From Rhynchopus sp. YZ270_cl-10 (Eukaryota): a stretch of 64,000 bases of DNA. A model generated the notes under the pieces. That model made no database searches and was not told where the DNA came from. It saw only the letters and a program-made list of their open reading frames with translations. The stretch covers positions 930,001 through 994,000 of the forward strand of contig OZ037839.1 in the NCBI GenBank assembly GCA_964035575.1, in the 5' to 3' direction. Below are positions 3,531 to 63,670 of this stretch, piece by piece. Both the position numbers and the translations under genes were made by a program. How positions within the stretch are numbered: position 1 is the stretch's first letter; each line of letters starts with the position of its first letter.

Positions 3531-4882
3531 TCAAAACCCTTCTCTCTCTTGTCCTGCTTTCAATGCAATACATTGTCTTGCACTTCCAGACACGTCTGTT
3601 CGTACTGCCTCAAAAGCTTCTATCCGCACATCTTCGAACTGTTCCGTAAACCTTGCGTAAATCTCACGCACACGTACATAGAAGGCCTCCTTGTAGGTGC
3701 TCATTCTAGGGTCTCCATTCGGGAGAGACAACATCTCGTCAATGTCGATGTTGCCTGGCAAGACGACTGTTGTGAGTGCGTTGCAGTTGAGCAGGAAGTC
3801 GTGCCGGATCTCTGTGTCCCTGCCAAAACCGACATGTCCAGCGTGGCCAAGGATGTGCAATCTTGCAGGAAAAGTGTATCAATCAGCCTAACATTGCTCA
3901 TTCCTGAGAAGTCTGCTGTTGTCAACGCGGAGCACTCTTCCATCCAGCCTTCCTCAATGTGTGTGATGCTGCGCAACACTGATAAATCAACTGTTTGCAA
4001 TGATGAACACTGATAAAGAAAACTGCTCCCGATGACCGCGACACTGCCAAAAGCTGAGAGGTCGATACTTCCCAGCGAGGTGCAGCTCGCAAGAAATTCG
4101 CGACCCACCTTCACAACTTTGTGCAGTGCTGTCAAGTCAATCGTTTCCAACGAGGTGCAGCCCGTACAAAACTGATTCCCAATTTCTGTCACATTCGTCA
4201 TCCCTGAAAAGCTGATGGTGGTCAACGACTCGCAGTAGGAGAGAAAGTTGTAGCCGATCTTCGTGACACTGCAAAAAGATGACAAATCAATGGTTGCCAA
4301 CGAGGTGCAGTTCTGGAGGAAGTGGTCCTCAATGTGTGTGATTCTGCGCCATCCTGAGATGTCAATCCTTTCCAACGACACGCAGGAGTAAAGAAAGCCT
4401 GCACCAACCTCCGTCACACTCGTCATCTCGGATAAGTCAAGCTTTGTGACGCCACTTCCTTCTAGGAAGCTATGCCCTATCACCGTCACACCAGACACAG
4501 CAGAGAGATCAAGTCTCGTAAACGATGCTTCGCTCAAGAACTGGTTTGGAATAACAGTCGCAACCTCCGCCTGAAGAAGCAGAGAAGCCACCTCAGGATC
4601 CTTCACAGTCGCCAACCTCGCTTCGGAAATGTCTGTCTCACCCAAGGCACGAAGTGTCTCAACAGATTGGTACTTGGTAGTTTTCGTCAACACGACTGTG
4701 TCTCCAGCACTCAGTTCTGTGATGTCCTCTCCTTCCTCCTTCCCTCCGAAGCCCATGCGGAAGCTGTCTTCGCACAACCCTGTTGCAGACGCCACCTTCT
4801 GCCGCATCGTCTCCGTTGTGTCTTTCTCACCCACCTCAATCACGAATTTGTTTTCATCATATCCCTGCACACACAGTTCCAT
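3531..4882 (-). pseudogene. UBL + BspA-type LRR protein, copy A (1-bp frameshift near 3830)
   Basis: Starts MELCVQGYDE with a UBL-like domain, then ~25-aa LRRs (VTxIGxxFLxxCxSLxxIDLS). Reads AAAACCGACATG on + where paralogues read AAAACCTGACATG; the C-terminus continues in ORF 3531..3860. Could be a sequencing error. Confidence 0.8.
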
Positions 4883-5779
4883 TGTTTCGAGTGAAGTGTT
4901 GCTCTGTTGTGGGGTGGTGTTGAGAAGGAGGAGGAGGGGAGGTACATTTTGTACTTTCTTCTGTATCTCCGTTATTGTGTTGTCGTGCAGCGAGCACATC
5001 CTCACGACAGAGCTAAGCATTGCTCCCGACACAAAACCCACAGGTTCGAGCTCTCCTGGTTGGTCACATCCACATCACAACCGTTGTCGGCACAGCATCG
5101 GCACCAATCAAAATTGTGGAGTAAAATAAAAAATAGCAAATTTCTGGCAATTTGAAAAACTGTAGGGGTTGACTTTTTTGTTTTGTTTGTCTTTTGCTGA
5201 ATGAATGTGAAATCAAGAAAATGTGGTACATACCCCCAAAAAAAAAACTACCCGTGCCCCGTTTTTTCCACCATTTTGTACATCTGCGAAACTTTTGTTT
5301 CGCATTTTTAAAATGATCTCAAAAACTGGACACACCTAGGTACCTGAGTGTGCCCATATTCTAGGTGGATGTATGTCCAGCACGCGACAGTGTACCTCAC
5401 AATGGAGAAAGTCCCAATGCGGGGGGTGCGGTACAGTAGAAAAATACAACATTTTTTTTTTAGACAGTTAGATTCAGGGCTATTTCTAAAAACCTGTCCC
5501 TGTCCCTGATTTTTGGAAAATGAAAGTTGCCAAAAAATTTGCACGGGGCTTATATACAGGGCTGCCAAAAAATTTGCACGTACTTCAGTACTTACCAAGA
5601 GAGGGGGATGGGCTTTCTGCTTGAAGAAAGTTGCCGATTTTTTTTGTGTTGAAAAGTTTTCTTCCAGATTGTGCAAATAACGGGGGTTTTGGTGGATTCT
5701 GAAAAATCCTAGAGGGCGCACCAGGCCGCGTGCCGGAGGCGCTATGAGGGGGTTTCTTAGAAAACTTGTTCTCTACACT

Positions 5780-6300
5780 AGCATCACTGGCACCGTACTC
5801 ATTTTAACAAAAACCAAGAACTTGCCCAATTCTGCAAATTGACCCCACCACAGAACGGACGGATTCTGGAAATGCAAATACCGGTGTTTTCGCGCATTTT
5901 CATGTTTCAGCATCTGGGGGAGAAAATCTGGGTTGTGGGATTTACCTTGGCTCCTTTGCCTTACACTCATTTTGACCAAAACCAAGAACTTGGCCATTTC
6001 GGCAAATTGACCCCACCACAGCGCGGACAGATTCCGGAAATGCCAATCGCGGTATGTTTTGGGGCTGAAAAATTTTCAGGGTAAAATTTTTTTGAGCAGC
6101 ATTTTTTGGCCGAAAATGGGCTCCACGTATTAGTGACCGGGCTCATATTTTCAAAAAATTTAAGTGGTCAAAAAATTGTCCAATTTTCGAGATTGCCCCC
6201 ACCACTGCGCGGGTGAATCCCAAAAATGCAAATAAGGACGTTTTTGGCACAAAATAAATCTGCCAAAAAATTTGTGTCCCGGATTGGATTTTGGGCCCCC
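5780..6300. repeat. Dispersed repeat family with GACCCCACCAC...GGATTCCG units
   Basis: Three tandem ~150-190 bp units here. Related sequence at ~8030-8170 and, inverted, at ~28170-28290. Confidence 0.6.
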
Positions 6301-6564
6301 CGGACCCCATATTTAGAAATAGCCCTGGTTAGATTTGAGTTAGGCTATTGGGGTTTGGCCAATTCTGGTTAGAGTCGTTGTGTTCGCGTGTGTAAAAGCC
6401 ACAGCGGACGGCGTTATCCTCATTGCCAACGCACTCCCACAACGAGAGACATGTGCATCGATCTTTGCGTATCTTCCCGTGTGGAGTAACCCAGGCAAGA
6501 TGGAGAAAAGGGAAGCAAAATTAGATGGCACCTTTCGTTTGTGGAAGTGGGTTCAAGGCGGTTG

Positions 6565-7647
6565 TCAGATCTCAACAATCTCAACACCCTCACCCCTGCC
6601 GTGCATCACCACTCCGCCACAGCTGCTAATGGCAACGCCGTAAGAACTCTTGATCTGCTTTTCAAATTCACGGTGCATCAGTAGTTCCCCTGTTGTGATG
6701 GACCACACGCACAATACTTTAGAAGTGTAGGCAGCAACAACGTCGTTGGACACAGCAACATCAACCCAGTCGTTATCTGAGACGTCTTCAAATACACATT
6801 CACCTGTTTCGATGTTCCAGACACGCACACAGTTGGTGCAAAACGCCGCAATAAAACGCTGGTTTGGTGTCAGTGCCACATACACAACACGTAAAGGGCA
6901 CGTCAGAACAAGCACCTCCACCCCTGTCGTGTAGTCCCAGACGGTAAGTAGGTCGCTGTCCTCCCCACACATTGCCACCCTGTCGCCTGTCACTACCATG
7001 ACGCAGTCGCTCTCCACAATGTGGCTCCATTCACGCACAACAACACCTGTTGCAATGTCCCACACCTGCAAACCCTTGTTCTTGCAGCACGACAACAGCT
7101 TTGTTCCACAGGGTGACCATGCCGTGGTCTTCCTCTTCTCACCTTCATCTCCAAAGGAGTGCTTCAATGCACCTGTCTTCACGTCATGAACTTCAGCACA
7201 CTCCGTGTCCTTGTTGACGGATGACACCCACTCACTGCAAGGTGAAAATGCTGGGAAACAAGTCAACTTTGCAGGAAAGCTGCACAGACTCTCATGTGTT
7301 ACCGTGTCGAAGATGGACAGATTCCCCACATCCCACATCACTGCAAGGTACCTATCACACGGGGAGAGTGTAAGCAAGAAGGTGTCATTCGAACCTTGTA
7401 TCACCCCAGGAGTGATATCGGCACCAGTGCAGTACAGCTCAACGGCACATCCCTCATCCATCTCCGTGTCGCAGATGCGCAAGTCGTCGTTGCCGATGTC
7501 GCCACCGCCTCTCATCCGCACACCAACACGCCGAGCACGTGGCACGCCAAGCTCCGCAAGAAGCTTCCCCTTCACCTGCGCAAGGGTGTCGCTCCCGTCC
7601 ACTTCTATCACACAGCTTGCAGACTCAAAGTGTCCTGTGATGTCCAT
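6565..7647 (-). CDS. UBL + WD40 beta-propeller protein, copy 1
   Basis: MDITGHF start; UBL pattern VIEVDGSDTLAQVKGKL; WD repeats (AWSPCGTKLLS, LQVWD, VRVWN); intronless. Confidence 0.85.
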   Translation of the reverse strand: MDITGHFESASCVIEVDGSDTLAQVKGKLLAELGVPRARRVGVRMRGGGDIGNDDLRICDTEMDEGCAVELYCTGADITPGVIQGSNDTFLLTLSPCDRYLAVMWDVGNLSIFDTVTHESLCSFPAKLTCFPAFSPCSEWVSSVNKDTECAEVHDVKTGALKHSFGDEGEKRKTTAWSPCGTKLLSCCKNKGLQVWDIATGVVVREWSHIVESDCVMVVTGDRVAMCGEDSDLLTVWDYTTGVEVLVLTCPLRVVYVALTPNQRFIAAFCTNCVRVWNIETGECVFEDVSDNDWVDVAVSNDVVAAYTSKVLCVWSITTGELLMHREFEKQIKSSYGVAISSCGGVVMHGRGEGVEIVEI

Positions 7648-9375: not shown

Positions 9376-10464
9376 TCAAGACAGGTGTGAGATGTCAACG
9401 ATTTCAACATCCTCGCTCGCGTACATCACCACACCGCCACAGCTGCTGATGGCAAGACCGTAATTGAACTCACCAACTGCTCCCACATCACGCTGCAAGA
9501 GCTTCAAACATGTTGTGATGGACCACAAGCACAATACTTTAGAAGTGTAGGCAGCAACAACGTCGTTGGACACAGCAACATCACTCCAGTCGTTATCTGA
9601 GACGTCTTCAAATACACATTCACCTGTTTCGATGTTCCAGACGTGCACACCGTTGGTGCAACAGGCTGCAATGAAACGCTGGTTTGGTGTCAGTGCCACG
9701 TAATCGACATCAGAATGGCATGTAAAAACTAACACCTCCACCCCTGTCGTGTAGTCCCAGATGGCGATACGTCTGCTTTCCTCCCCAAACATTGCCACCC
9801 TGTCGTCTGTCACAATCATCTGCGACACGCCGTCCATGCTGTCCCATTCACGCACAACAACACCTGTTGCAATGTCCCACACCTGCAAACCCTTGTTCTT
9901 GCAGCACGACAACAGCTTTGTTCCACAGGGTGACCATGCCGTGGTCTTCCTCTTCTCACCTTCATCTCCAAAGGAGTGCTTCAATGCACCTGTCTTCACG
10001 TCATGAACTTCAGCACAATGCGTGTTCTTGTTGATACACGAGATCCACTCACTGCAAGGTGAGAAGGATGGGATGGAATCAGGCCGGCTAGGGAAGCTGC
10101 ACAGACGTTCATGTGTTTCCGTGTCGAAGATGGACACACCATTCCCGAAAGTCATCACTGCAAGGTACCTATCACACGGGGAGAGTGCAAGCGAGAAAGC
10201 GTCTTCCGAACCTTGTATCACCCCAGGAGTGATATCGGCACCAGTGCAGTACAGCTCAACGGCACATCCCTCATCCATCTCCGTGTCGCAGATGCGCAAG
10301 TCGTCGTTGCCGATGTCGCCACCGCCTCTCATCCGCACACCAACACGCCGAGCACGTGGCACGCCAAGCTCCGCAAGAAGCTTCCCCTTCACCTGTACAA
10401 GGGTGTCGCTCCCGTCCACTTCTATCACACAGCTTGCAGACTCAAAGTGTCCTGTGATGTCCAT
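9376..10464 (-). CDS. UBL + WD40 beta-propeller protein, copy 2
   Basis: Direct paralogue of 6565-7647 with an almost identical UBL domain and 5' leader. Confidence 0.85.
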   Translation of the reverse strand: MDITGHFESASCVIEVDGSDTLVQVKGKLLAELGVPRARRVGVRMRGGGDIGNDDLRICDTEMDEGCAVELYCTGADITPGVIQGSEDAFSLALSPCDRYLAVMTFGNGVSIFDTETHERLCSFPSRPDSIPSFSPCSEWISCINKNTHCAEVHDVKTGALKHSFGDEGEKRKTTAWSPCGTKLLSCCKNKGLQVWDIATGVVVREWDSMDGVSQMIVTDDRVAMFGEESRRIAIWDYTTGVEVLVFTCHSDVDYVALTPNQRFIAACCTNGVHVWNIETGECVFEDVSDNDWSDVAVSNDVVAAYTSKVLCLWSITTCLKLLQRDVGAVGEFNYGLAISSCGGVVMYASEDVEIVDISHLS

Positions 10465-11679: not shown

Positions 11680-13272
11680 CTATTGTTTCCCCAGCGGAAC
11701 GACTGAAGTGAATGAGTAGTCAGCGTTCCTGTGTAAATAATGTTTTTTTTTAAATTAATACAGAGAAACAAAGAGGGGGAGAGATCCGGAAAGGTTTGTA
11801 AGATGAACCTAAGCCTTTCTATGCTGAGGGACCGCGTTGTACCAAAAAACAAAATGGTTTAGGACATCAAAACTGATGCAAAAAAAATAGAAAACTGTGA
11901 CGATCATATGAGCAAAAAAGGATTAACCTTTAGACCCGAAGCCAGATTTTCGACCCACTTTTGAGTTTTGGTTTTGGGTTACTGATAAGGCTAACACACT
12001 CCCCACCTGCCTTTTGTGCATCAGGGGGAGAAGCGCCACGCCTCCCTGCACTGGCAGGGAGTCGCGCGCGCGAAGCGCGCGCAGCGACCGCTTTTACGGG
12101 GGGAAAGCTCGGGACCCCAAATGACCCCCGGCAAGAGCCCTGACGACATATCGGGAAAATTTTTTTCCCCCCCCCACAAAAAAGTCAAAAAACAGCCCAA
12201 AAACTATAAAAAAACAGGGAATTTTTTGGATTTCGGAATTTGGCCAAAAAGGGACGGATTTAGAGATATCCTTGGTCGTAATTCCATATTGTCACAATGA
12301 TTGATCCCGTTAACGAGATCTCCCCTAAATAGGCGAAAGTTTTCCTTTTTACAATACGGTCTTCGGACCAAAATTGAAAACACATAAATCCTATTTTTTA
12401 CCATCCACACACCCTCCCCCCCCCCCCGGGCCCCCCCCCCTATAGGGGGTCCGACTCCCATGTAAATTTTTGTCCATTTAATTATTTTTTCAGCATTGGG
12501 CCATTTCCCGGGCACCCCCGGGTGAATCCTGCCCCCAAAATAGGGTTTCTGGGCCCTGTGGGGCTAAATTCACCCTCTAGGTACCCCAAAATATGAAAAA
12601 AATTGAAAAATATGGTGAAAAATCGGGTTTTTGGCCTTTTGGGCACTATGGCCAGTTTTGACTAAATTTCCAAAAAAAAAATCAAAAAAAGCCCCAAGAA
12701 TAGACGGAAAAAGGAGTCTCTGGCCACAATTTCGGCCCAAAAATGTGTTTTGAGTCCATTGCAAACGGTTTTTCGCCTTTTTGCCACTTTTTTTGACGAT
12801 TTTTTGGTGTTTTTAGGTGCAAAAACAACCCCAGAACAACCCCAGAACAACCTCAGAACACTTTTTCACCACATTCTGGATCAATATCTAGCCGAACTTT
12901 TTGCTGAAAACCTCCGAAAAACCACCCCTGTAAGTCAGATTATACCGAATGTTGCTCCAATTCCCACAATAACACCCAAATCTACGGCAGAAAATCGGGG
13001 AAAAAAACACACTTTTTTCAAAAGGTCGTCAGGCAGGGTTCCATCCCAGAACAACCCCAGAACACTTTTTCACCACATTCTGGGTCAATATCTAGCCGAA
13101 CTTTTTGCTGAAAACCGCCGAAAAACCACCCCTGTGAGTCAGATTATACCGAATGGTGCTCCAATTCCCACAATAACACCCAAATCTACGTCAGAAAATC
13201 GGGGGAAAAAAACACACTTTTTTCAAAAGGTCGTCAGGCAGGGTTCCATAATGAGCTTTTTGAAAAAAGTGT

Positions 13273-35151: not shown

Positions 35152-37114
35152 TTATGCTGCCCCCAACTCTCCAAATCCTCTTTTTGTTCCTCTTTTTTGT
35201 CCTCTTGTACTTGCATCAATCCCTTCCCTCTCTTGTCCTGCTTTCAATGCAATACATTGTCTTGCACTTCCAGACACGTCTGTTCGTACTGCCTCAAAAG
35301 CTTCTATCCGCACATCTTCGAACTGTTCCGTAAACCTTGCGTAAATCTCACGCACACGTACATAGAAGGCCTCCTTGTAGGTGCTCATTCTAGGGTCTCC
35401 ATTCGGGAGAGACAACATCTCGTCAATGTCGATGTTGCCTGGCAAGACGACTGTTGTGAGTGCGTTGCAGTTGCGCAGGAAGTCGTGCCGGATCTCTGTG
35501 TCCCTGCCAAAACCTGACATGTCCAGCGTGGTCAAGGATGTGCACTCTTGAAGGAAACGTTTATCAATCTGCGTAACATTGCTCATTCCTGAGAAGTCTG
35601 CTGTTGTCAACGCGGAGCAGTCTTCCATCCAGCAGTCCTCAATGTGTGTGATGCTGCCAAAAGCTGAAAGGTCAATACTTCCCAGCGAGGTGCAACCCCA
35701 GAGAAAGCAGTGACCCACCTTCACAACTCTGTGCAGTGCTGTCAAGTCAATGGTTGCCAACGAGGTGCAGTTATGGAGGAAGCCGTTCTCAATGTGCGTG
35801 ACTCTGCGCCATCCTGAGATGTCAATCCTTTCCAACGACTGGCAGCTGACAAGAAAGTATGTACCAACCTTCGTCACACTCGTCATCTCGGATAAGTCAA
35901 GATTTGTGACGCTACTACCTGCGAGGAAACCGTCCCCTATCACCGTCACAGCAGTGAACCCTGACACGTCAAGGCTTGTCAACGATTTGCAGTCATAGAG
36001 ACAGAAACTCCCAATGTGCGTAACGTTGCGCAATCCCGACAAGTCAACTCTTGTAACCACACACATGAAGAGGAAGTGGTCCTCAATTCGTGTCACACCA
36101 GACACAGCAGAGAGATCAAGTGTAGTAAACGATGCTTGCGACAAGAAGTAGTTTGGAATAACAGTCGCAACCTCCGCCTGAAGAAGCAGAGAAGCCACCT
36201 CAGGATCCCTCACAGTCGCCAACCTCGCTTCGCTAAACGTTTTTAAAAATAGGATGGAACACCCCGTTCCGAAGAGGAATGCAGCCACCCCGAAAAAGTG
36301 GGGGTGTGTCGCCAGTCTGCGGTGAGAAACTCCTCCCTGAGTCAAAACTGCCGCTGGTTAGCGCTGGCTAAGGTTCCCTTTTCACCCGGTCACAATCGAG
36401 TCTCGCTCCGTCGGCGTTGACTGCACTGCAAAGCCCCTTGGTCCACCGTCGTAAAAAGACACCACAAAAAGCGTAGGTAGGTGGGGGACCGGCAGGTTAC
36501 AGACAGAGGCAGTACGGAGCTAAGGTGTCGGCGGTCGCGGGTTGCCGTGGAGGCCTGCCCCCCGTGGAGGTCTTGGGATCTGGGAGTTTTGTGGAAGTAA
36601 TCGGCTCAGAGTACCCTGCATTCCATGCACGACTCGAGCTCCTTGTGGTAGGATATTGGGGTCCCGGGAAGCACCCTTCGCCCCGAGGTCCCACCACCCC
36701 AGACAGTTTGTAGGTCTAAAAGCACAACGTACTTGTCCAGGACCTGGCCGCTCTTGGGTTCTCTCAAAAAAAGATACTAATCCCGTACGCCCGTGCACCG
36801 CAAAAATGTGCTATGGGGGGCGGTCCGCCGTCGGGAGTCGCCAACCTCGCTTCGGAAATGTCTGTCTCACCCAAGGCACGAAGTGTCTCAACAGATTGGT
36901 ACTTGGTAGTTTTCGTCAACACGACTGTGTCTCCAGCACTCAGTTCTGTGATGTCCTCTCCTTCCTCCTTCCCTCCGAAGCCCATGCGGAAGCTGTCTTC
37001 GCACAACCCTGTTGCAGACGCCACCTTCTGCCGCATCGTCTCCGTTGTGTCGTTCTCACCCACCTCAATCACGTATTTGTTTTCATCATCATATCCCTGC
37101 ACACACAGTTCCAT
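35152..37114 (-). pseudogene. UBL-LRR copy B, disrupted by a 603 bp insertion
   Basis: N-terminal part in ORF 36764..37186 and the remainder in ORF 35152..36345; split at SEARLAT. Confidence 0.9.
36233..36835 (-). mobile_element. 603 bp non-coding insertion with 19 bp TSD (likely short retroposon)
   Basis: AGTCGCCAACCTCGCTTCG duplicated at 36214-36232 and 36836-36854; paralogues show the empty site. Strand inferred from the putative 5' structure. Confidence 0.9.
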
Positions 37115-38253: not shown

Positions 38254-39501
38254 TCACTGCACTCGACACAACGTCGCTGCAGCCTGTCCCAGACTCTGAC
38301 CTTCCAAATGCCCTTGCTTGTCATGCTCCTGTTTGTCCAGTTCCTGCTTCTCCTCGTCTTCTTGTGCTTGCATCAAACCTTCTCCTTCTTGTCCTGCTTT
38401 CAATGCAATACATTGTCTTGCATCTCCAGACACGTCTGTTCGTACTGCCTCAAAAGCTTCTATCCGCACATCTTCGAACTGTTCCGTAAACCTTGCGTAA
38501 ATCTCACGCACACGTACATAGAAGGCCTCCTTGTAGGTGCTCATTCTAGGGTCTCCATTCGGGAGAGACAACATCTCGTCAATGTCGATGTTGCCTGGCA
38601 AGACGACTGTTGTGAGTGCGTTGCAGTTGAGCAGGAAGTCATCCTGGATCTCTGTGTCCCTGCCAAAACCTGACATGTCCAGCGTCGTCAAGGATGTGCA
38701 ATCTTGCAGGAAACACCTACCGATCAGCGTAACATTGCTCATTCCTGAAAAGTCTGCTGTTGTCAACGCGGAGCAGTCTTGCATCCAGCCGTCCTCAATG
38801 TGCGTGATTCTGCGCCATCCTGAGATGTCAAGACTTTCCAACGACCCGCAGTAGGCAAGAAAGTATTTACCAACCTTCGTCACACTCGTCATCTCGGATA
38901 AGTCAAGATTTGTGACACCACTTTCTTGGAGGAACCTGTTCCCTATCACCGTCACACCAGTGAACCCTGACACGTCAAGGCTTGTCAACGATGTGCAGTA
39001 AGAGAGAAAGCTATGCCCAATGTGCGTAACGTTGCACAATCCCGACAAGTCAACGGTTTCCACCGACCTACACCAGTAGAGGAAGCCGTCCTCAATTCGT
39101 GTCACACCAGACACAGCAGAGAGATCAAGTCTCGTAAACGATGCTTCGCACAAGAAGTAGTGCGGAATAACAGTCGCAACCTCCGCCTGAAGAAGCAGAG
39201 AAGCCACCTCAGGATCCCTCACAGTCGCCAACCTCGCTTCGGAAATGTCTGTCTCACCCAAGGCACGAAGTGTTTCAACAGATTGGTACTTGGTAGTTTT
39301 CGTCAACACGACTGTGTCTCCAGCACTCAGTTCTGTGATGTCCTCTCCTTCCTCCTTCCCTCCGAAGCCCATGCGGAAGCTGTCTTCGCACAACTCTGTT
39401 GCAGACGCCACCTTCTGCCGCATCGTCTCTGTTGTGTCGTTCTCACCCACCTCAATCACGTATTTGTTTTCATCATCATATCCCTGCACACACAGTTCCA
39501 T
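38254..39501 (-). CDS. UBL-LRR copy C (short form)
   Basis: Intact frame from MELCVQ; five LRR modules fewer than copy D; alternative acidic C-terminal tail. Confidence 0.88.
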   Translation of the reverse strand: MELCVQGYDDENKYVIEVGENDTTETMRQKVASATELCEDSFRMGFGGKEEGEDITELSAGDTVVLTKTTKYQSVETLRALGETDISEARLATVRDPEVASLLLQAEVATVIPHYFLCEASFTRLDLSAVSGVTRIEDGFLYWCRSVETVDLSGLCNVTHIGHSFLSYCTSLTSLDVSGFTGVTVIGNRFLQESGVTNLDLSEMTSVTKVGKYFLAYCGSLESLDISGWRRITHIEDGWMQDCSALTTADFSGMSNVTLIGRCFLQDCTSLTTLDMSGFGRDTEIQDDFLLNCNALTTVVLPGNIDIDEMLSLPNGDPRMSTYKEAFYVRVREIYARFTEQFEDVRIEAFEAVRTDVSGDARQCIALKAGQEGEGLMQAQEDEEKQELDKQEHDKQGHLEGQSLGQAAATLCRVQ

Positions 39502-40925: not shown

Positions 40926-42476
40926 TTATGCTGCCCCCAACTCTCCAAATCCTCTTTTTTGTCCTCTTGTGCTTGCATCAAACCCTTCTCCTTCTTGTCC
41001 TGCTTTCAATGCAATACATTGTCTTGCACTTCCAGACACGTCTGTTCGTACTGCCTCAAAAGCTTCTATCCGCACATCTTCGAACTGTTCCGTAAACCTT
41101 GCGTAAATCTCACGCACACGTACATAGAAGGCCTCCTTGTAGGTGCTCATTCTAGGGTCTCCATTCGGGAGAGACAACATCTCGTCAATGTCGATGTTGC
41201 CTGGCAAGACGACTGTTGTGAGTGCGTTGCAGTTGAGCAGGAAGTCGTGCCGGATCTCTGTGTCCCTGCCAAAACCTGACATGTCCAGCGTCGTCAAGGA
41301 TGTGCACTCTCGCAGGAAACCACGATCAATCAGCGTAACATTGCTCAGTCCTGATAAGTCTGCTGCTGTCAACGCGGAACACCCTTGCATCCAGTTCTCA
41401 ATGTGTGTGATGCTGCGCAACACTGATAAATCAACTGCTTTCAATGATGTGCACCCGAGAAGAAACCCTGACCCAATAGCTGCGACATTGCCAAAAGCTG
41501 AGAAGTTAATGCTTGCCAGCGAGGTGCAGGTCCTCAGAAAGCAGTTACCCACCTTCACAACCCTGTGCAGTGCTGTCAAGTCAATCGTTTCCAACGAGGT
41601 GCAGCCCCTACAAAATTCGATCCCAATTTCCGTCACATTCGTCATCCCTGAAAAGCTGATGGTGGTCAACGACGAGCAGTAGCGGAGAAGCTCGGAGCCG
41701 ATCTTCGTGACACTGCGAAAAGCTGACAAATCAATGGTTGCCAACGAGGTGCAGTTCTGGAGGAAGCCGTCCTCAATGTGCGTGATTCTGCGCCATCCTG
41801 AGATGTCAATCCTTTTCAACGACCTGCAGTAGGCAAGAAAATCTGCACCAACCTTCGTCACACTCGTCATCTCGGATAAGTCAAGATTTGTGACGCCAGT
41901 TCCATGGAGGAACGACTCCCCTATCACCGTCACACCAGTGAACCCTGACACGTCAAGGCTTGTCAACGATGCGCAGTAAGAGAGACAGTCATGCCCAATG
42001 TGCGTAACGTTGCACAATCCCGACAAGTCAACGGTTTCCACCGACCTACAACTGTAGAGGAAGTGGTGCTCAATTCGTGTCACACCAGACACAGCAGAGA
42101 GATCAAGTCTCGTAAACGATGCTTGCGACAAGAAGAAGCCTGGAATAACAGTCGCAACCTCCGCCTGAAGAAGCAGAGAAGCCACCTCAGGATCCTTCAC
42201 AGTCGCCAACCTCGCTTCGGAAATGTCTGTCTCACCCAAGGCACGAAGTTCCTCAACAGATTGGTACTTGGTAGTTTTCGTCAACACGACTGTGTCTCCA
42301 GCACTCAGTTCTGTGATGTCCTCTCCTTCCTCCTTCCCTCCGAAGCCCATGCGGAAGCTGTCTTCGCACAACCCTGTTGCAGACGCCACCTTCTCCCGCA
42401 TCGTCTCCGTTGTGTCGTTCTCACCCACCTCAATCACGTATTTGGTATCATCATATCCCTGCACACACAGTTCCAT
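40926..42476 (-). CDS. UBL-LRR copy D (longest form, ~12 full LRR modules)
   Basis: Intact frame; UBL, LRR array and conserved C-terminal domain. Confidence 0.9.
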   Translation of the reverse strand: MELCVQGYDDTKYVIEVGENDTTETMREKVASATGLCEDSFRMGFGGKEEGEDITELSAGDTVVLTKTTKYQSVEELRALGETDISEARLATVKDPEVASLLLQAEVATVIPGFFLSQASFTRLDLSAVSGVTRIEHHFLYSCRSVETVDLSGLCNVTHIGHDCLSYCASLTSLDVSGFTGVTVIGESFLHGTGVTNLDLSEMTSVTKVGADFLAYCRSLKRIDISGWRRITHIEDGFLQNCTSLATIDLSAFRSVTKIGSELLRYCSSLTTISFSGMTNVTEIGIEFCRGCTSLETIDLTALHRVVKVGNCFLRTCTSLASINFSAFGNVAAIGSGFLLGCTSLKAVDLSVLRSITHIENWMQGCSALTAADLSGLSNVTLIDRGFLRECTSLTTLDMSGFGRDTEIRHDFLLNCNALTTVVLPGNIDIDEMLSLPNGDPRMSTYKEAFYVRVREIYARFTEQFEDVRIEAFEAVRTDVSGSARQCIALKAGQEGEGFDASTRGQKRGFGELGAA

Positions 42477-54769: not shown

Positions 54770-57700
54770 ATTGCGATCGAAGATGGACCAAGACTAAGCA
54801 ATTAGGTTTCATCGTACAAACTTTTCTTTCCCCCTTATGTTTGAGGACATCTTTTTTTGCCCTCCGTGAAGGAGTGTTTTTTGAGTGTTTTCTTTGCATC
54901 GGACAGTGTTTCAAAGCTGTTCTCTTGTGAATACTGTTGCCCGCAGGTTGGCGAGCTACGATACCTGAAACACATTCGGTGTTCCGCTGTTGTTTATTCT
55001 TTGCAAGTTGTGAGCTGCATGACCGGAGTCGGTCCTAGCCCATGGGGCGGCCCCTTTGGTTGTGTTATGCTCCTGGTGTGAAGCGCCCGTCCTAGCCAGG
55101 GTGTGGTAAATCTCAGGAGTGCCTTTTAAACGTCCTGTCTGCCATTTCGGTTGATACAAATTATCGTGCTTCAAAAATGTTATTGGTTCAGAATAAATGT
55201 GGATCTTGTTCTGGACCAACGCTTTTCAAAGCACAGTACAAAGAGAGATCATTAACCGAATGCAACGTGCTACTTTGGGGGGTTCTTTGGGGAGTTAATG
55301 TTCAGCCTTTTTCAAGCTTTTGTGCGTCTATTTTCATTTTGGTGAACTTCTCCCCTCTTTATCCCACAGAGTTCTCCTTTGCCAACCCCGAGTCTCTCGA
55401 GCATGTTGTCCCCCCATTTTGTTGTATCTTGCCTCCCTCCTCGTCCTTCTCAACACCACCCCACAACAGAGCAACACGTCACTCGAAACAATGGAACTGT
55501 GTGTGCAGGGATATGATGAAAACAAATTCGTGATTGAGGTGGGTGAGAACGACACAACGGAGACGATGCGGCAGAAGGTGGCGTCTGCAACAGGGTTGTG
55601 CGAAGACAGCTTCCGCATGGGCTTCGGAGGGAAGGAGGAAGGAGAGGACATCACAGAACTGAGTGCTGGAGACACAGTCGTGTTGACGAAGTCGACGAAG
55701 TACGCATCTGTTAAGAAACTTCGTGCCTTGGGTGAGACAGACATTTCCGAAGCGAGGTTGGCGACTGTGAAGGATCCTGAGGTGGCTTCTCTGCTTCTTC
55801 AGGCGGAGGTTGCGACTGTTATTCCGAACTACTTCTTGGCGCAAGCATCATTTACGAGACTTGATCTCTCTGCTGTGTCTGGTGTGACACGAATTAAGGA
55901 CGGCTTCCTCTACAGTTGTAGGTCGGTGGAAACTGTTGACTTGTCGGGATTGTGCAACGTTACGCACATCGGGGACTACTGTCTCTCTTCCTGCACATCG
56001 TTGACAAGCCTTGACGTGTCAGGGTTCACTGGTGTGACGGTGATAGGGAAGTCGTTCCTAGGAGGAACTGGCGTCACAAATCTTGACTTATCCCATATGA
56101 CGAGTGTGGCGGAGGTTGGTGCAAATTTTCTTTCCCAATGCGAGTCGTTGGACAGTCTTGACATCTCAGGATGGCGCAGCATCACACACATTGAGGACGG
56201 CTGGATGCAAGAGTGCTCCGCGTTGACAACAGCACACTTCTCAGGAATGAGCAATGTTAGTCGGATTGGTAGATATTTCCTGCAGGATTGCACATCCTTG
56301 ACGATACTGGACATGTCAGGTTTTGACAGGGACACAGAGATCCAGGACGACTTCCTGCTCAACTGCAACGCACTCATAAGAGTCGTCTTGCCAGGCAACA
56401 TCGACATTGACGAGATGTTGTCTCTCCCGAATGGAGACCCTAGAATGAGCAACTACAAGGAGGCCTTCTATGTACGTGTGCGTGAGATTTACGCAAGGTT
56501 ACGGAATAGTTCGAAGATGTGCGGATAGAAGCTTTTGAGGCAGTACGAACAGACGTGTCTGGAAGTGCAAGACAATGCATCGCGATCGAAGGTGGACCAA
56601 GACTAAGCAATTAGGTTTCATCTTACAAAATTCTTTCCCCCTTATGTTTGAGGCCTCCCCTCAGAGAACTTTTTTTGCCCTCCGGGAAGGAGTGTTTTTT
56701 GAGTGTTTTCTTTGCATCGGGAAGTGTTTCAAAGCTGTTCTCTTGCGAATACTGTTGCCCGCAGGTTGGCGAGCTACGATACCTGAAACACATTCGGTGT
56801 TCCGCTGTTGTTTATTCTTTGCCAGTTGTGAGCTGCATGACCGGAGTCGGTCCTCGCCCATGGGGTGGCCCCTTTGTTGTGGTATGCTCCTGGTGTGAAG
56901 CGCCCGTCCTAGCCAGGGTGTGATAAATCTCAGGAGTGCCTTTTAAACGTCCTGTCTGCCATTTCGGTTGATACAAATTATCGTGCTTCAAAAATGTTAT
57001 TGGTTCAGAATAAATGTGCCCCTTTTTCTGGACCAACGCTTTTCAAAGCACAGTACAAAGAGAGATCATTAACCGAATGCAACGTGCTACTTTGGGGGGT
57101 TCTTTGGGGAGTTAATGTTCAGCCTTTTTCAAGCTTTTGTGCGTCTATTTTCATTTTGGTGAACTTCTCCCCTCTTTATCCCACAGAGTTCTCCTTTGCC
57201 AACCCCGAGTCTCTCGAGCATGTTGTCCCCCCGTTTTGTTGTATGTTGCCTCCCTCCTCGTCCTTCTCAACACCACCCCACAACAGAGCAACACGTCACT
57301 CGAAACAATGGAACTGTGTGTGCAAGGATATCATGACAACAAATTCGTGATTGAGGTGGGTGAGAACGACACAACGGAGACGATGCGGCAGAAGGTGGCG
57401 TCTGCAACAGGGTTGTGCGAAGACAGCTTCCGCATGGGCTTCGGAGGGAAGGAGGAAGGAGAGGACATCACAGAACTGAGTGCTGGAGACACAGTCGTGT
57501 TGACGAAAACTACCAAGTACCAATCTGTTGAGGAACTTCGTGCCTTGGGTGAGACAGACATTTCCGAAGCGAGGTTGGCGACTGTGAGGGATCCTGAGGT
57601 GGCTTCTCTGCTTCTTCAGGCGGAGGTTGCGACTGTTATTCCTGACCGGTTCTTGAGCGATGCATCGTTTACGAGACTTGATCTCTCTGCTGTGTCTGGT

Positions 57701-58690
57701 GTGACACGAATTAAGGACGGCTTCCTCTCCGGGTGTGCGTCGGTGGAAACTGTTGACTTGTCGGGATTGTGCAACGTTACGCACATCGGGTATGGCTGTC
57801 TCTCTTACTGCACATCGTTGACAAGCCTTGACGTGTCAGGGTTCACTGGTGTGACGGTGATAGGGGAGTCGTTCCTCCAAGGAAGTGGCGTCACAAAGCT
57901 TGACTTATCCCATATGACGAGTGTGACGAAGGTTGGTACATACTTTCTTTTCAACTGCGAGTCGTTGAAAAGGATTGACATCTCAGGATGGCGCAGAATC
58001 ACGCACATTGAGGACCACTTCCTCATGAGCTGCACCTCGTTGGCAAGCATTGATTTGTCAGCTTTTTGCAGTGTCACGAAGATCGGATCCAAGCTTTTCT
58101 TCAACTGCAAGTCGTTGACCACCATCAGCTTTTCAGGGATGACAAATGTGACGGAAATTGGGAACGATTTTTGTGCGTACTGCACCTCGTTGGAAACGAT
58201 TGACTTGACAGCACTACACAAAGTTGTGAAGGTGGGTAACGGCTTTCTCTGGGGCTGCACTTCGCTGGGAATCATCGACCTTTCAGCTTTGGGCAGCATC
58301 ACACACATTGAGGACTGCTGGATGCAAGAGTGTTCCGCGTTGACAACAGCAGACTTCTCAGGAATGAGCAATGTTCGGCGGATTGATGCTAATTTCCTGC
58401 AAGAGTGCACATCCTTGACCACGCTGGACATGTCAGGTTTTGGCAGGGACACAGAGATCCATCATGACATACTGTTCAACTGCAACGCACTCACAACAGT
58501 CGTCTTGCCAGGCAACATCGACATTGACGAGATGTTGTCTCTCCCGAATGGAGACCCTAGAATGAGCAACTACAAGGAGGCCTTCTATGTACGTGTGCGT
58601 GAGATTTACGCAAGGTTTACGGAACAGTTCGAAGATGTGCGGATAGAAGCTTTTGAGGCAGTACGAACAGACGTGTCTGGAAGTGCAAGA
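54770..58690 (+). repeat. Tandem duplication of the upstream region plus UBL-LRR gene
   Basis: ~54770-55490 is repeated at ~56580-57307, each copy followed by an LRR gene. Confidence 0.85.
55491..56580 (+). pseudogene. UBL-LRR copy E (short form; frameshift near 56500 and 3' truncation)
   Basis: CAAGGTTACGG versus CAAGGTTTACGG in paralogues; stop at 56528; homology ends at the duplication junction near 56580. Confidence 0.8.
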
Positions 58691-58798
58691 CAATGTATTG
58701 CATTGAAAGCAGGACAAGAGAGGGAAGGGATTGATGCAAGCACAAGAGGACAAAAAAGAGGAACAAAAAGAGGATTTGGAGAGTTGGGGGCAGCATAA
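57308..58798 (+). CDS. UBL-LRR copy F
   Basis: Intact frame; one LRR module fewer than copy D. Confidence 0.9.
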   Translation: MELCVQGYHDNKFVIEVGENDTTETMRQKVASATGLCEDSFRMGFGGKEEGEDITELSAGDTVVLTKTTKYQSVEELRALGETDISEARLATVRDPEVASLLLQAEVATVIPDRFLSDASFTRLDLSAVSGVTRIKDGFLSGCASVETVDLSGLCNVTHIGYGCLSYCTSLTSLDVSGFTGVTVIGESFLQGSGVTKLDLSHMTSVTKVGTYFLFNCESLKRIDISGWRRITHIEDHFLMSCTSLASIDLSAFCSVTKIGSKLFFNCKSLTTISFSGMTNVTEIGNDFCAYCTSLETIDLTALHKVVKVGNGFLWGCTSLGIIDLSALGSITHIEDCWMQECSALTTADFSGMSNVRRIDANFLQECTSLTTLDMSGFGRDTEIHHDILFNCNALTTVVLPGNIDIDEMLSLPNGDPRMSNYKEAFYVRVREIYARFTEQFEDVRIEAFEAVRTDVSGSARQCIALKAGQEREGIDASTRGQKRGTKRGFGELGAA

Positions 58799-59458
58799 AC
58801 AGGCGCAGGACAAGCTGGATGAACAGAGGGGTTTGGGGGTTTGTGTGAAGAACACTTCGGTGAACGTATTGAACTGCATTTTTGGGTACACTTTTGAGAG
58901 CTGGGGTAAAATGTTTGGCAGGTTTGGTGCACAACTCTGACAAACTGGAGTGTCCCCACCACTTTTTATGAACAACCTGTCAGCCCAAAGTCTTTTCCAC
59001 TCCACATATGTGTCAGGCTGGGGATGAGTGAAAAACAAACGAGAAAGCTATTTTATTGTATCCTGCCTCCCTCCTCCTCCTTCTCAACCCCTCCCCCGCT
59101 ACTGAGTAAAACAAAAGCCTTTAGTGCCACACCCCTTCTCTTGCTCGCTTATCAGTGCTGCTCTCGTTGCAATGAAGATAACAACAACAGTCCTTCACGG
59201 TAACGAGTTTGTAACAACTCACCTCACGAATGCAGATGGATGGTACACAAGCGACCCATAGCCAGACGTGCTCCTTTATTAAAAAGCCACACAACACACA
59301 CCTTGGATCACTGTACAGTCACTCTACTCTACCACGTCAGTGGTCCATGCTACGTGAGGCACATCCCTCTTGCATTTTCTGTGACCAAGCACGGTGATGC
59401 GAACATCCTTACCCTTATCCTTTTCTTCAGAGTCGAAGGGTCTTTGTGTGGGGGAAAT

Positions 59459-62400
59459 ATGCCAGAAATGAGTGCCGCAGATGTGCAGTCTTTGTTGGAA
59501 TGTCCCGATCGCAGTCGTCATATGTATGTCCTCGGGTTTCCTGGGTGTACTGCAGCAGTGGCGTAACAGTGGTCCAAAAATATGTTGGCGGCCAAATAGG
59601 TTTGGCGGATTTTGGAGATTTTTGGGTACTCGGGGAGGGGGGGTTCGATGGCATGGCAGCAGACGAACTGCCCTCCAGTTGGGTTAGGGTGGTGTGGTGT
59701 TCTGCTTTGCTTCTCTCTTACCTTAAGAATTCCACATACACCCCCTTCCCCTTCCCTTGCTTGGCAGTTGTTTCCTGGGCGATGTTGGCCACGGACGGAG
59801 CACCCTTGCCAAATGCCTTGCCGCAGAATATTCAATTACGGAGCCACGTGGTCGTATAATTGACCGTCGCTGTGACTCGCGAGACGTATGCTGCTCAAAA
59901 AGAAAATAAATAATAAAAAAAAAAAAGTTGCGGACCCCGATCTACTGCTCAATGCACCAAAAAGTACGCTGTCACCCTCTCAACGCAATGCCTTTTTCCG
60001 GCAAAAAAGCATAACAAAAGCCAACAGAGAGAACCCAATCAATTTTATTGTTGAAAACCGCTTGTCCTCATCACCCACCCCACCCCCACCCCCTCAGCGC
60101 TACGACCAGCCGTCACCCAGCGTCGGTCTGCATTACGATGATGGGGAGGGGTTCTTGGTTAATGTGATTGGGTTGTGTGAGGAGGACGTGGCACATGGTG
60201 TGCACACCACGCTGCGCATATGCGACGGCGCTGTTATTGTCGTGAGCGTGGGTGATGGGGACAGCACCTCAAACCACACCCCCTCATGCGAAGCTGTCTC
60301 CACAGACAGGCTCCCAGGCGACGCCCTCCCCACACAGACCGCGACACTCCTGCGCAGTGCCCTCGCACTCCGCATCCGCCCCTTGCTTATGCTCAACAAA
60401 CTTGATGTCCCCCTCGCCTCTGGCACCCCTGAAGCCACCTACCAGCGCTGTCTTAGGACCATTGCCTCCACCAATGACGTCACCTCACTCTACAATGATG
60501 ATGCCCATACCGAACTCCATCCGTCCCTCGGTAACGTCGTTTTTGGGTCGGGTCTCGGGTCTTGGTCGTTTACGCTGAAAGATTTTGTGGGATTGTATTC
60601 TAAGAAATTGGAGATGAATGAAAGCAAACTTCTGAACCGGATTTGGGGGGATCATTTCTATGATGCTAAGACGAAGAGGTGGGGGGAGGATTCGGGGAGC
60701 GGGGAGAGGGGGTTTTGTCAGTTCTGTTTGGAGCCGTTGTGGGGGTTGGCGGAGGCGGTGTTGAATGGGAAGGAGGAGAAGCTGGCACGGATGCTGCGCA
60801 GTCTGAAGATCACTGTGAACAGGACACAACGTGACCTGACCCCGTCACGCCGTCTTCAAGCCATTCTCAAGAAACTGCTGCCTTCCAAACAGCTCCTCCA
60901 CGCTGTTGTCACTGCCCTCCCCTCCCCCCTTGAGGCTCAGACCTACCGCACACCCCTGCTCTACGACGACAGCACCATTGACATCCACGACCCCGGATAC
61001 CTCGGTGTCAGCCACTGCAGTCCCACCGCACCTCTCACCCTCTTCATCGCATCTGTTGTCCCATATGACGGACGTCTCTTCGCATTTGGCAGAGTATTTT
61101 CCGGAACAGTCTCCCGCGGGGAAAAGCTTCGCGCCGGAAGAGACCATATCAAGCAAGGAAGCATGGTGGCGGTGTTTGGAAAATGGCATCATCCGGTGGG
61201 GAGGTTGGTTTGTGGGAACCTTTGTGCATTGGATCTGAATGTGAAGGTGGGGGCAACGGTGTCGGATGGGGTGGTGTGTCCGTTGAAGAGCGATGTAGGG
61301 GGTGTCAGTGTGGTGCAGGCTGAGGTTGTGTGTGAGGTTCAGGATCTTCCACGTTTGGTTTATGCACTGAAGAAGGCGGCGAGTTGTGAACATACTGCCG
61401 ACATTGCAGTATCGGAAGCGGGTGTTCACATGGTTGCCGGTTCTACAGAAGATGCGGTACTTCACTGCCTGGCGCGTCTTCGCAGTGCAGACTACAAAGC
61501 ACCGTGCTTTACAGTCTCCGATATTTCCATCCGACTTCGCGAAACCATCACCGAAGCAAGCAACCGTCAATGCACCGCAATGTCACCCAACAGACACAAC
61601 GTATTGTACTGCAAAGGCTTTCCTCTACCAGACGCTGTCTGCACACAGATTGAAGAGGGGACATACAAAACACCGGTATGGTGCTTTGGGCCGGCCGGAG
61701 GGCCGAATGTTGTGGTCGATGTTACGAAGGGTGTGCAATATATGCAGGAGCTGAAAGACTCAGTTGGGGCGGCGTGGACGTGGCTGACGGGGGAGGGTGT
61801 GTTGTGTGGGGAGGTGATGAGAGGGGTGCGGGTGGACATCGAGCATGCGACGTTGCACGCAGATGCTATCCACCGTGGTGCAGGACAGATCATTCCCACC
61901 ATGCGGGGTGCAGCGCGTGCCTGCATTCTCACGGCAGCGCCGCGGTTGATGGTGCCGATCTTCCGTCTGGATGTGACCACCACACTCACATCAATCGACT
62001 CCGTCTACACAACTCTGCAACAACGAAGATGCACGGTCCTTGGAGAGAGCACCCGCGGTACTATGTTCAATGTATGAATCAAAGGGCTGAGGTTGGGGGT
62101 TTTTTGTATTTTTACTTTTTGGAGTGGGGTACACGTTACCAGTCTGTCTTTTCGTGGATAAAGTTTTCTTCAGTCGTCTCATGAAATGAAGGAGGAAATA
62201 CAAACAAAGCATTTTGAACAGACTTTGCGGTTCTGGGGACGAACCGCGCTGCAGAGCCACTCCTCACCAAACAGGTGTGCGTTTCACCACAAACCTTGGG
62301 GTTTTTGTGTGATGAGTGTTAAGTTTCTATTTCCCCCTTTTTTTTGATAAATAGTTAGAACAGCACTGCCACCTGTGCAAGATGCACTTTATAGAGCGAG

Positions 62401-62969: not shown

Positions 62970-63059
62970 AGAGGGGGTGCACACAAGCCTTGCTGTTGGT
63001 CGTTGGGGTGGGGGTGGTTGCAGGCGTTCGGGTCCACTACTGCTCTGTATGGTGAGTTG

Positions 63060-63420
63060 CTGAGGCGAGCAGTGTCACTTCCATCGGGTAATTGTCTTTA
63101 TGGCGTCGAGTGGACAGTGCTTGACTTGCCTGGGTTGGAAGGGGTGGTGCCTGTTGGACATTGGTTGCTTTCGCACTGCAGCGTGTTGACACGACCGGAC
63201 GTATCTACGTGGTACGGTGTCAGAGGTTGGGAAAGGCTTCCTCAAGCTGCATCGCGTTGGAAATAATTGAATAGAATTGTCACTGTTTTGGCGGTGTTGG
63301 TGATATGCGGGAGTGGTGTCCTTCGTGCACAGGGTTGACGTCCCTCTATTGCCATCACTTCGCAGTGCCAGACGTATTGATAGCTGGTTCCTTTCGCACT
63401 GCACGACTAGCTTTGGAGAC
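63060..63420 (+). pseudogene. Degenerate LRR remnant (mirror of 42690-43040)
   Basis: Same fragments as the left-arm copy. Confidence 0.5.
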
Positions 63421-63626
63421 AACAGCCTCTCGGGCACACCGCTGACGCACCCTGGAAGCGAACAACAAACAATCTTAGTTTTTCTCCTCCCACTTTGCAG
63501 TCTTTTTAGCAAACAAAAATTAAAGAGTCTCTCGAGCATGTTGTCCCCCCATTTTGTTGTATCTTGCCTCCCTCCTCCTCCTTCTCAACACTCACCCCAC
63601 AACAGAGCAACACTTCACTCGAAACA

Positions 63627-63670
63627 ATGGAACTGTGTGTGCAGGGATATGATGAAAACAAATTCGTGAT
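63627..63670 (+). pseudogene. UBL-LRR copy G, truncated after ~14 codons
   Basis: Leader and ATGGAACTGTGTGTGCAGGGATATGATGAAAACAAATTCGTGAT present, then unrelated sequence. Confidence 0.8.

What the first reader, a model, noticed from the sequence alone, without database searches (positions are those of the whole stretch)
3531..63670. Hypervariable UBL-LRR repertoire: invariant frame with variation focused on four positions per repeat
Seen: six long copies have almost identical UBL and C-terminal domains, even in DNA. Within each LRR, the two residues before and two after FL change from copy to copy. Module 4 reads VGAGFLYSC, VGTYFLVSC, VGKYFLAYC, VGADFLAYC, VGANFLSQC, VGTYFLFNC; the first repeat reads PNQFLSE, PNYFLSQ, PHYFLCE, PGFFLSQ, PNYFLAQ, PDRFLSD. 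Known: BspA/TpLRR repeats are binding scaffolds, and UBL domains often engage the proteasome or p97. Inference: a cytosolic receptor repertoire (no signal peptide or TM segment) under diversifying selection that couples target recognition to a UBL tag, possibly protist cell-autonomous immunity.
Basis: partly seen in the sequence, partly recalled or inferred. Interest (0 to 1): 0.85.

Follow-up and report, generated by a model that had tools for sequence, protein, structure and literature searches.

The report
Hypervariable ubiquitin-tagged binder repertoire in diplonemid
A marine single-celled eukaryote (a diplonemid) carries over a hundred genes that join a constant ubiquitin-like domain to a leucine-rich-repeat rod in which four positions per repeat change under positive selection, beside a second large family with a similarly varied WD40 ring; these are likely an intracellular set of target-binding proteins, probably for recognising foreign proteins.

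Summary
Six long copies and one stub lie at 3531-63670; C, D and F are intact, A and E are frameshifted late, B carries a 603-bp insertion. Positions 3, 4, 7 and 8 of the 25-residue BspA/TpLRR repeat differ in 63-75% of pairwise comparisons, the other positions in 0-33%; ten paralogs outside the window repeat the pattern. Codon models give dN/dS 13 (one synonymous rate) or 3.5-4.1 (local synonymous rate, p<=2e-4). Synonymous change also rises 6-9-fold around these sites and the copies are mosaic, so gene conversion, not only purifying selection, keeps the frame alike. The ubiquitin fold is confirmed, but the Ile44 position is Gly or Ser, which weakens the proteasome/p97 link. The variable sites are off the concave beta-sheet. 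The host is a Rhynchopus-like diplonemid. At least 120 relatives share the architecture; 41 have NLS-like and 16 CaaX-like tails. New: the window also holds two members of a likely UBL-WD40 family (120 listed at >=72% identity) that varies on the propeller's top face. No target, partner or immune role was shown.

The parts
3531..4882 (-). Copy A: UBL, three-helix linker, 11 LRRs, tail; one-base deletion near 3831 before the last repeat
36836..37114 (-). Copy B, 5' part: UBL and start of the helical linker
36233..36835 (-). 603-bp insertion in copy B, flanked by a 19-bp direct duplication (36836-36854 and 36214-36232); high-copy elsewhere, single in the window; the duplication holds AG|GT, so a 622-nt GT-AG intron is possible (untested)
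35152..36213 (-). Copy B, 3' part: rest of linker, 10 LRRs, tail
38254..39501 (-). Copy C: intact, 415 aa, 8 LRRs
40926..42476 (-). Copy D: intact, 516 aa, 13 LRRs (numbering reference)
55491..56528 (+). Copy E: 345-aa ORF, 8 LRRs; one-base deletion near 56499 alters only the end of the tail
57308..58798 (+). Copy F: intact, 496 aa, 12 LRRs; modelled (pLDDT 87)
63627..63670 (+). Stub G: first 15 codons of the UBL, at the end of a 4.6-kb inverted duplication (42433-47078 with 63670-59053, 98%)
6565..7647 (-). Likely UBL-WD40 gene W1 (360 aa), second hypervariable family
9376..10464 (-). Likely UBL-WD40 gene W2 (362 aa)

Best explanation
These genes are a large diplonemid family in which a constant ubiquitin-like domain and three-helix linker carry a BspA-type repeat rod whose four exposed positions per repeat diversify under positive selection, and they likely act inside the cell as variable binders that would catch foreign proteins and hand them to one common host partner through the constant end. 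Shown: architecture, fold, site-specific variation, dN/dS above 1, mosaic copies, repeat-number change, family size. Inferred: (1) positions 3, 4, 7, 8 flank the buried Phe-Leu and stack into one stripe along the rod, off the concave sheet; (2) tandem duplication and gene conversion keep the frame and ends alike while selection preserves or reshuffles the variable patches, which leaves the synonymous halo; (3) different tails send members to cytosol, nucleus or membranes; (4) the targets are proteins of intracellular bacteria, viruses or mobile elements; (5) the UBL docks on a host factor, most likely of the ubiquitin or protein-disposal system, through a surface other than the Ile44 patch. 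Step 5 is the weakest.
For: Variation: (entropy highest at positions 3, 4, 7, 25, 8 in 560 repeats of 109 other family members). Selection: M2a versus M1a 2dL 197, omega 13.2, 25 of 30 sites with posterior >0.95 are in the 52 target codons; omega 3.5-4.1 with class-specific synonymous rates, with or without multi-base changes, p 5e-5 and 2e-4; counting estimate 1.93, bootstrap 1.26-3.11, and 3.32 (1.78-8.55) for the three intact copies alone. Residue use at these sites is mostly N, D, S, G, Y, Q. Fold. N-terminal module stays 50-95% identical across 111 relatives with 73 nearly invariant columns. Tails: 41 of 120 NLS-like (shuffle mean 7.3, max 15), 16 of 120 CaaX-like (shuffle mean 0.33), none with both. 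Parallel design: in the WD40 family, top-face loops have heterozygosity 0.57, bottom-face loops 0.10, the N-terminal domain 0.07; 47 of 58 highly variable sites are in top-face loops. Three of 120 members carry N-terminal B-box-like fingers (below Pfam cut-off). Endosymbiotic bacteria are reported in diplonemids (listing and abstract starts).
Against: No ligand, partner or induction was shown. Ile44 equivalent is Gly/Ser and the Val70 equivalent is mostly Thr (the latter aligned by eye). Synonymous rate is 6-9 times higher in and beside the variable codons, so omega 13 is inflated; 63% of informative site pairs are four-gamete incompatible, which breaks the single-tree assumption, and the test for clustering of compatible sites was not significant (p 0.12-0.22). 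dN/dS in the ends is 0.9 among the window copies. Codon tests rest on six sequences. In the WD40 pair the variable class gives pN/pS only 1.23. Three of six copies are interrupted. The 3D position of the sites is read from secondary structure and the repeat consensus, not from coordinates. Tail motifs are shared by descent within subfamilies.
Confidence: 0.55

Rival explanations
1. The proteins face outward in a conflict with prey or hosts: they are released or membrane-anchored and bind proteins of organisms the diplonemid feeds on or parasitises, and the UBL subverts the victim's ubiquitin system.
For: BspA-like families of Trichomonas and Entamoeba are surface candidates, and one CaaX-bearing Entamoeba BspA was shown on the surface (PMC2843621, passages). 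Predatory and parasitic behaviour is common in diplonemids (bioRxiv 10.64898/2026.01.29.702485, passage). CaaX-like tails in 16 of 120.
Against: No signal-peptide-like or membrane segment in the 4 window copies tested; few hydrophobic tails among the 120 (one search flagged 4, three of them the linker helix). CaaX prenylation and NLS use are cytosolic processes (established knowledge).
Confidence: 0.15
2. They are adaptors for the cell's own proteins, or antidotes in a conflict inside the genome (selfish elements), rather than receptors for invaders.
For: 41 of 120 have NLS-like tails. The window holds a multi-copy tyrosine-recombinase element (37 contigs) and a high-copy insertion. No relative of the N-terminal module was found in viral, phage or metagenome collections.
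Against: Stable host substrates do not explain omega above 1 on every repeat of many paralogs in two scaffolds.
Confidence: 0.13
3. No adaptive repertoire: unconstrained surface positions drift, gene conversion homogenises the well-matched frame and skips diverged patches, and this mimics positive selection.
For: Synonymous halo (rates 1: 3: 6-7: 8-9 from ends to variable codons) and mosaic copies; three of six copies interrupted; omega 0.7-0.9 in the frame.
Against: Omega stays 3.5-4.1 against the local synonymous rate and 3.0 (2.1-4.7) against the whole patch. Other exposed positions, including concave 14/16/18 (pN 0.067), do not vary. No stop codon lies at any variable site in the six copies. 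The WD40 family varies on its usual binding face only.
Confidence: 0.12
4. A dedicated mutator (DGR-like template-directed mutagenesis or programmed patch conversion) generates the variation.
For: Sharp focus on four codons per repeat, many multi-base differences (multi-hit term improves lnL by 14), raised synonymous change.
Against: Variable columns are not restricted to adenine: A 23 of 36, C 18 of 34, G 26 of 31, T 12 of 16. No separate template-like copy in the window and no reverse transcriptase among the 17 ORFs scanned. The genome could not be searched.
Confidence: 0.05

Closest known systems
BspA-like (TpLRR) expansions of Trichomonas vaginalis (911 genes) and Entamoeba
   Same: Same repeat class (Pfam PF13306; consensus as in PMC2946307), hundreds of clustered paralogs, pseudogenes, CaaX tails in some Entamoeba members (PMC2843621, passages).
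   Different: Those are described as surface or secreted candidates of mucosal parasites; the main text of PMC2843621 has no mention of ubiquitin. Here every listed member has a UBL plus helical linker, the host lineage is a marine diplonemid, and site-specific positive selection is measured.
Rapidly evolving F-box substrate adaptors of Caenorhabditis
   Same: Constant N-terminal adaptor under constraint, positively selected C-terminal binding domain, birth-death evolution, proposed recognition of foreign proteins (PMC8665587, passages).
   Different: No F-box hit here; the constant part is a ubiquitin fold plus a helical linker of unknown family; no cullin link is shown.
FNIP/FGxxFN LRR repertoires of Cafeteria roenbergensis virus, Megavirus baoshan and Dictyostelium
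   Same: Large LRR repertoires with variation concentrated at two residues per repeat; some are fused to F-boxes (PMC9525666, passages).
   Different: [quoted passage not shown]
UBL proteasome shuttles and adaptors (Rad23, Dsk2, Ddi1, midnolin, Nub1)
   Same: Integral, non-conjugatable N-terminal ubiquitin fold (VIA Z 8-10 to these and to ubiquitin) joined to a binding domain.
   Different: Ile44 position is Gly/Ser; no UBA domain; those are few conserved genes (recalled), not a selected repertoire.
Ubiquitin + DUF285 (BspA-family repeat) clusters in the ESM Atlas
   Same: Ubiquitin-like domain joined to BspA-type repeats.
   Different: Feature score 0.80-0.83 is only a lead; different repeat family; taxa mostly unrecorded; no function known from this call.

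Membership tests
BspA/TpLRR class | Repeat of 23-25 residues with consensus LxxLxLxxxLxxIgxxAFxx(C/N)xx | tested here: met
   24-25-residue repeats with the same spacing, F-L in place of A-F (consensus from PMC2946307); PF13306 above cut-off in 6 of 6 ORFs; top Foldseek hits 4fs7, 4h09, 4gt6.
BspA-like surface proteins of protists | Signal peptide, transmembrane segment or surface display | tested here: not met
   Hydropathy shows no signal or membrane segment in copies A, C, D, F; localisation itself not testable.
Integral (type II) UBL domain | Beta-grasp ubiquitin fold without a C-terminal di-glycine | tested here: met
   TM 0.7-0.8 to ubiquitin over about 71 residues; Z 10.3, rmsd 1.9, 67 aligned; no Gly-Gly after the last strand. 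Pfam PF00240 matches are below cut-off (19-22 bits against 25.4).
Canonical proteasome-binding UBL (Rad23/Dsk2 type) | Hydrophobic Leu8-Ile44-Val70 patch (feature recalled) | tested here: not met
   Position 44: Gly 63%, Ser 31%, Glu 2%, Thr 1% of 112; Val70 equivalent Thr 88%; position 8 Phe/Tyr/Cys/Leu.
Canonical proteasome-binding UBL (Rad23/Dsk2 type) | Binding to Rpn1, Rpn10, Rpn13 or p97 | not testable with these tools
   No eukaryotic partner sequence was at hand for a complex prediction; no job sent.
F-box or other cullin adaptors | F-box, BC-box or BTB motif | tested here: inconclusive
   No such Pfam hit. The structure search of the N-terminal model was filled by the UBL, so the 44-residue helical linker was barely tested.
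Plant NLR / VLR-type variable LRR receptors | Variable residues on the concave beta-sheet (feature recalled; concave binding as the common mode in PMC9525666) | tested here: not met
   Main strand at repeat positions 14-16; difference 0.33, 0.07, 0.00 at exposed positions 14, 16, 18 against 0.63-0.75 at 3, 4, 7, 8.
Diversity-generating retroelement target | Adenine-restricted variation, template repeat and reverse transcriptase | tested here: not met
   Variation at all four bases; no template copy in the window; the rest of the genome was not available.
Innate immune receptor repertoire | Recognition of pathogen molecules and a protective output | not testable with these tools
   Needs binding and infection experiments.

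The most novel reading that the evidence does not exclude
A single-celled marine eukaryote has built a cell-autonomous immune repertoire of several hundred ubiquitin-tagged binders on two scaffolds: TpLRR rods that bind with a non-concave stripe and WD40 rings that bind with their top face. Members are addressed to cytosol, nucleus and membranes, are diversified by selection plus gene conversion, and route foreign proteins to destruction through a UBL that does not use the Ile44 patch, in place of an F-box or RING.
Probability: 0.3. Interest if true: 0.9.

Novelty: new variant of a known kind. Interest (0 to 1): 0.7.

Why it matters
How free-living protists recognise intracellular bacteria and viruses is largely open, and diplonemids are among the most abundant marine eukaryotes. 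A constant ubiquitin-like tag on two separately diversified binding scaffolds gives a direct way in: one UBL partner to find and a defined set of binding positions to test. The non-concave variable stripe would also be an unusual binding mode for LRR proteins and a natural template for engineered binders.

Tried and rejected
No whole genome is held for this window, so genome-wide DNA and dN/dS could not be had. The run search listed no holder on record as RNA; the four runs laid first covered intergenic DNA or were too thin and gave no test of splicing in copy B. In the run inferred to be RNA, the 3' part of copy E had little or no cover; this is no evidence of silence. The search of 50% representatives never ran (queue full, 8 tries), so the range of the UBL-linker module across diplonemids and other eukaryotes is untested. 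No relative of the N-terminal module in phages, viral contigs (8 candidates, 0 confirmed) or metagenome contigs (575 candidates, 0 confirmed); these collections hold little eukaryotic DNA. Atlas hits were all under 0.9. No known fold was assigned to the helical linker (domain barely tested). Earlier findings of the scan: three look-ups, nothing returned. The idea that the two arrays are haplotypes of one locus was dropped: D and F differ in repeat content and are 82% identical, and gene order across the gap at 48828-49027 is not a mirror. The test for clustering of compatible sites was not significant. A complex prediction with the neighbouring EF2-like protein was considered and not sent, since adjacency was the only reason. 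DGR-type mutagenesis rejected.
Full report
Observation. The window holds six long copies of one gene and a stub: A 4882-3531 (-), B 37114-35152 (-), C 39501-38254 (-), D 42476-40926 (-), E 55491-56528 (+), F 57308-58798 (+), G 63627-63670 (+). Each copy has a 68-residue UBL, a 43-residue three-helix linker, 8 to 13 repeats of 24-25 residues and a tail. Repeats are positionally homologous between copies; copies differ by in-frame loss of whole repeats, with junctions in matching stretches. C, D and F are intact. A has a one-base deletion before the last repeat; the DNA after it is still identical to B and D, so it is recent or an assembly error. E has a one-base deletion in the tail; its tail differs from the others at 8-11 bases and has a stop in the old frame, which suggests a real change that leaves the rod whole. 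B is interrupted by 603 bp with a 19-bp direct duplication. A pyrimidine tract and an AG lie about 20 nt before the ATG in the three copies inspected, as expected for spliced-leader trans-splicing (established for euglenozoans).

Variation. With position 1 at the Ile/Val before the quoted motifs, mean pairwise difference among the six copies is 0.69, 0.75, 0.72, 0.63 at positions 3, 4, 7, 8 and 0.00-0.33 at the other 21; UBL, linker and tail give 0.03-0.05. Ten closest paralogs outside the window (P0001-P0009, P0011; P0010 dropped because it is copy E) give 0.72, 0.78, 0.75, 0.60, with positions 2 and 25 next at 0.45 and 0.38. In 560 pattern-matched repeats of 109 more distant members, entropy is highest at 4, 7, 3, 25, 8.

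Selection. Pooled counting gives dN/dS 1.93 for the 52 target codons, 0.70 for the LRR frame, 0.86 for UBL plus linker, 0.52 for the tail; the bootstrap over repeats is 1.26-3.11, and 3.32 (1.78-8.55) for C, D, F alone. My own implementation of M2a versus M1a on one tree gives 2dL 197, omega 13.2 for 12% of sites; 25 of 30 sites with posterior above 0.95 are target codons; M8 versus M8a agrees. That figure is inflated. When each class has its own synonymous rate, the rates are 1 (ends), 3 (frame), 6-7 (codons beside the sites) and 8-9 (the sites), and omega falls to 3.5, or 4.1 with multi-base changes, still above 1 (p 5e-5 and 2e-4). Of the pairs among 20 informative sites outside the target codons, 63% are four-gamete incompatible, so the copies are mosaic, although the clustering test was not significant. 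The reading is concerted evolution of frame and ends with selected, older variable patches. Variation is not adenine-restricted, which argues against a DGR. All codon tests rest on six sequences.

Structure. The model of F has mean pLDDT 87, above 90 over most of the rod, and below 50 from residue 447. Best solved matches are bacterial BspA-type proteins. The main strand of each repeat is at positions 14-16 and a short second strand at 25-1. By the standard LRR scheme (PMC2946307, passages) the main strand forms the concave sheet and the rest is the variable segment. The concave-exposed positions 14, 16, 18 have pN 0.067. So the varied sites are off the concave face. That they form one stripe is inferred from their spacing around the buried Phe-Leu and from stacking; I had no coordinates. 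The N-terminal domain has the ubiquitin fold (TM 0.7-0.8; Z 10.3). Aligned to ubiquitin, Lys29 is kept in 99% and Lys48 in 65% of 112 sequences, but Ile44 is Gly 63%, Ser 31%. The linker is highly conserved and unassigned.

Host and family. A neighbouring gene (884-1747) has its best named homologues in Rhynchopus humris (84%), Diplonema papillatum (68%) and Flectonema neradi (64%): the host is a Rhynchopus-like diplonemid. The search with F returned 3466 hits, of which the best 120 were listed; 119 are ENA-only proteins on large contigs and one is copy E, consistent with one assembly (inferred). The linker motif is in 119 of 120 and a strict UBL motif in 97 of 120; profiles built from 112 sequences hit 120 of 120 (partly circular). 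Tails: 41 of 120 match an NLS-like pattern (shuffled mean 7.3), 16 of 120 a CaaX-like end (0.33), none both; three members have N-terminal B-box-like fingers below Pfam cut-off. In two runs that behave as DNA, single-copy contigs have depth about 90-100 and the contig on the shared tail 2450-2690, roughly 25-28 copies of this subfamily (rough). Run X5 is not on record as RNA, but one contig skips a 727-nt GT..AG intron in a neighbouring gene; its contigs lie on the UBL, LRR and tail stretches and not on 55076-55407. This indicates transcription of the family, not of a given copy.

A second family. Two WD40 genes at 6565-7647 and 9376-10464 share an N-terminal domain that differs at 2 bases, while their blades differ in patches. 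That domain is likely a UBL (profile match to the LRR family's UBL, probability 70%, E 4e-5; not modelled, no Pfam hit). The search gave 266 hits, the 120 listed at 72% identity or more. With loops assigned by eye, top-face loops have heterozygosity 0.57 and bottom-face loops 0.10; 47 of 58 highly variable sites are in top-face loops and 1 in a bottom loop. The top face is the usual substrate-binding face (established knowledge). For the one DNA pair in the window the variable class gives pN/pS 1.23 against 0.46 for the frame, which is suggestive only. Two scaffolds with one design support the binder reading.

Mechanism. Best reading (0.55): intracellular variable binders with a constant docking end, aimed at foreign proteins. 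Architecture, selection and family size are shown; the binding stripe, compartments, targets and partner are inferred. Rivals: outward-facing effectors (0.15), adaptors or antidotes for the cell's own genome (0.13), neutral conversion artefact (0.12), dedicated mutator (0.05).

Literature. Ten searches listed no paper that describes UBL-LRR or UBL-WD40 expansions in diplonemids; (Rhynchopus, genome, leucine-rich repeat, diplonemid) found 0 papers, and I saw only the listed rows of the others. The D. papillatum genome paper has no occurrence of ubiquitin, LRR or WD40 in its main text (PMC10161547, passages; supplements not read and they may list such families). The preprint on Rhynchopus genomes has no occurrence of leucine or ubiquitin (10.64898/2026.01.29.702485, passages; supplements not available). 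Also seen as passages: PMC2843621, PMC9525666, PMC8061765, PMC2946307, PMC8665587. Most subscription journals are not in the library. The kind is known (fast-evolving adaptor repertoires, BspA expansions); the UBL tag, the non-concave sites, the twin scaffold and the host appear new.

Verdict. Real, well supported as a positively selected repertoire, unproven as immunity. Novelty: new variant of a known kind. Interest 0.7.

Noticed in passing
window 6565-7647 and 9376-10464 (-): Likely UBL-WD40 genes of a second large family (266 hits, 120 listed at 72% identity or more) with variation on top-face loops.
   Followed up: yes
window 36233-36835: 603-bp high-copy insertion (contig depth about 70 times single copy in run X2) with a 19-bp target duplication that holds AG|GT; it could be spliced out exactly as a 622-nt intron, an intron-gain candidate.
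   Followed up: partly
window 59888-62077 (+) and about 44058-46247 (-): Two 99.9% identical divergent EF2-like genes (three in the cluster on this contig) inside a 4.6-kb inverted duplication that also carries the start of a UBL-LRR gene; the histidine motif that is modified to diphthamide in EF2 (recalled) looks kept, so a decoy role is a possible, untested idea.
   Followed up: partly
window 26103-27119 (-): 338-aa tyrosine recombinase with an identical protein on 37 contigs: likely an active Crypton-like element; inverted repeats nearby at 22825-23159 and 25643-25826.
   Followed up: no
window 49222-51494: 3'-5' exonuclease gene with a 727-nt GT..AG intron skipped in run X5 (49570/50298).
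   Followed up: partly
window 58913-59112: Inverted fragment of the upstream region of copies B and C right after copy F, a sign of local rearrangement.
   Followed up: no
P0037, P0093, P0112: Family members with two B-box-like fingers ahead of the UBL-LRR, a TRIM-like arrangement (matches below Pfam cut-off).
   Followed up: partly
window 16389-18011 (-): Probable secreted, intron-split gene with a signal-like start and an EGF-like piece; the larger ORF has no Pfam hit.
   Followed up: no
window 48828-49027: 200-base assembly gap between the two arrays; their relative orientation depends on scaffolding.
   Followed up: partly
window 12443-13249 and 14356-15126: Inverted 770-bp repeat (98%) with internal 205-bp tandem units flanking a low-complexity ORF; also a perfect 8-bp tandem array at 20100-20385.
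   Followed up: no
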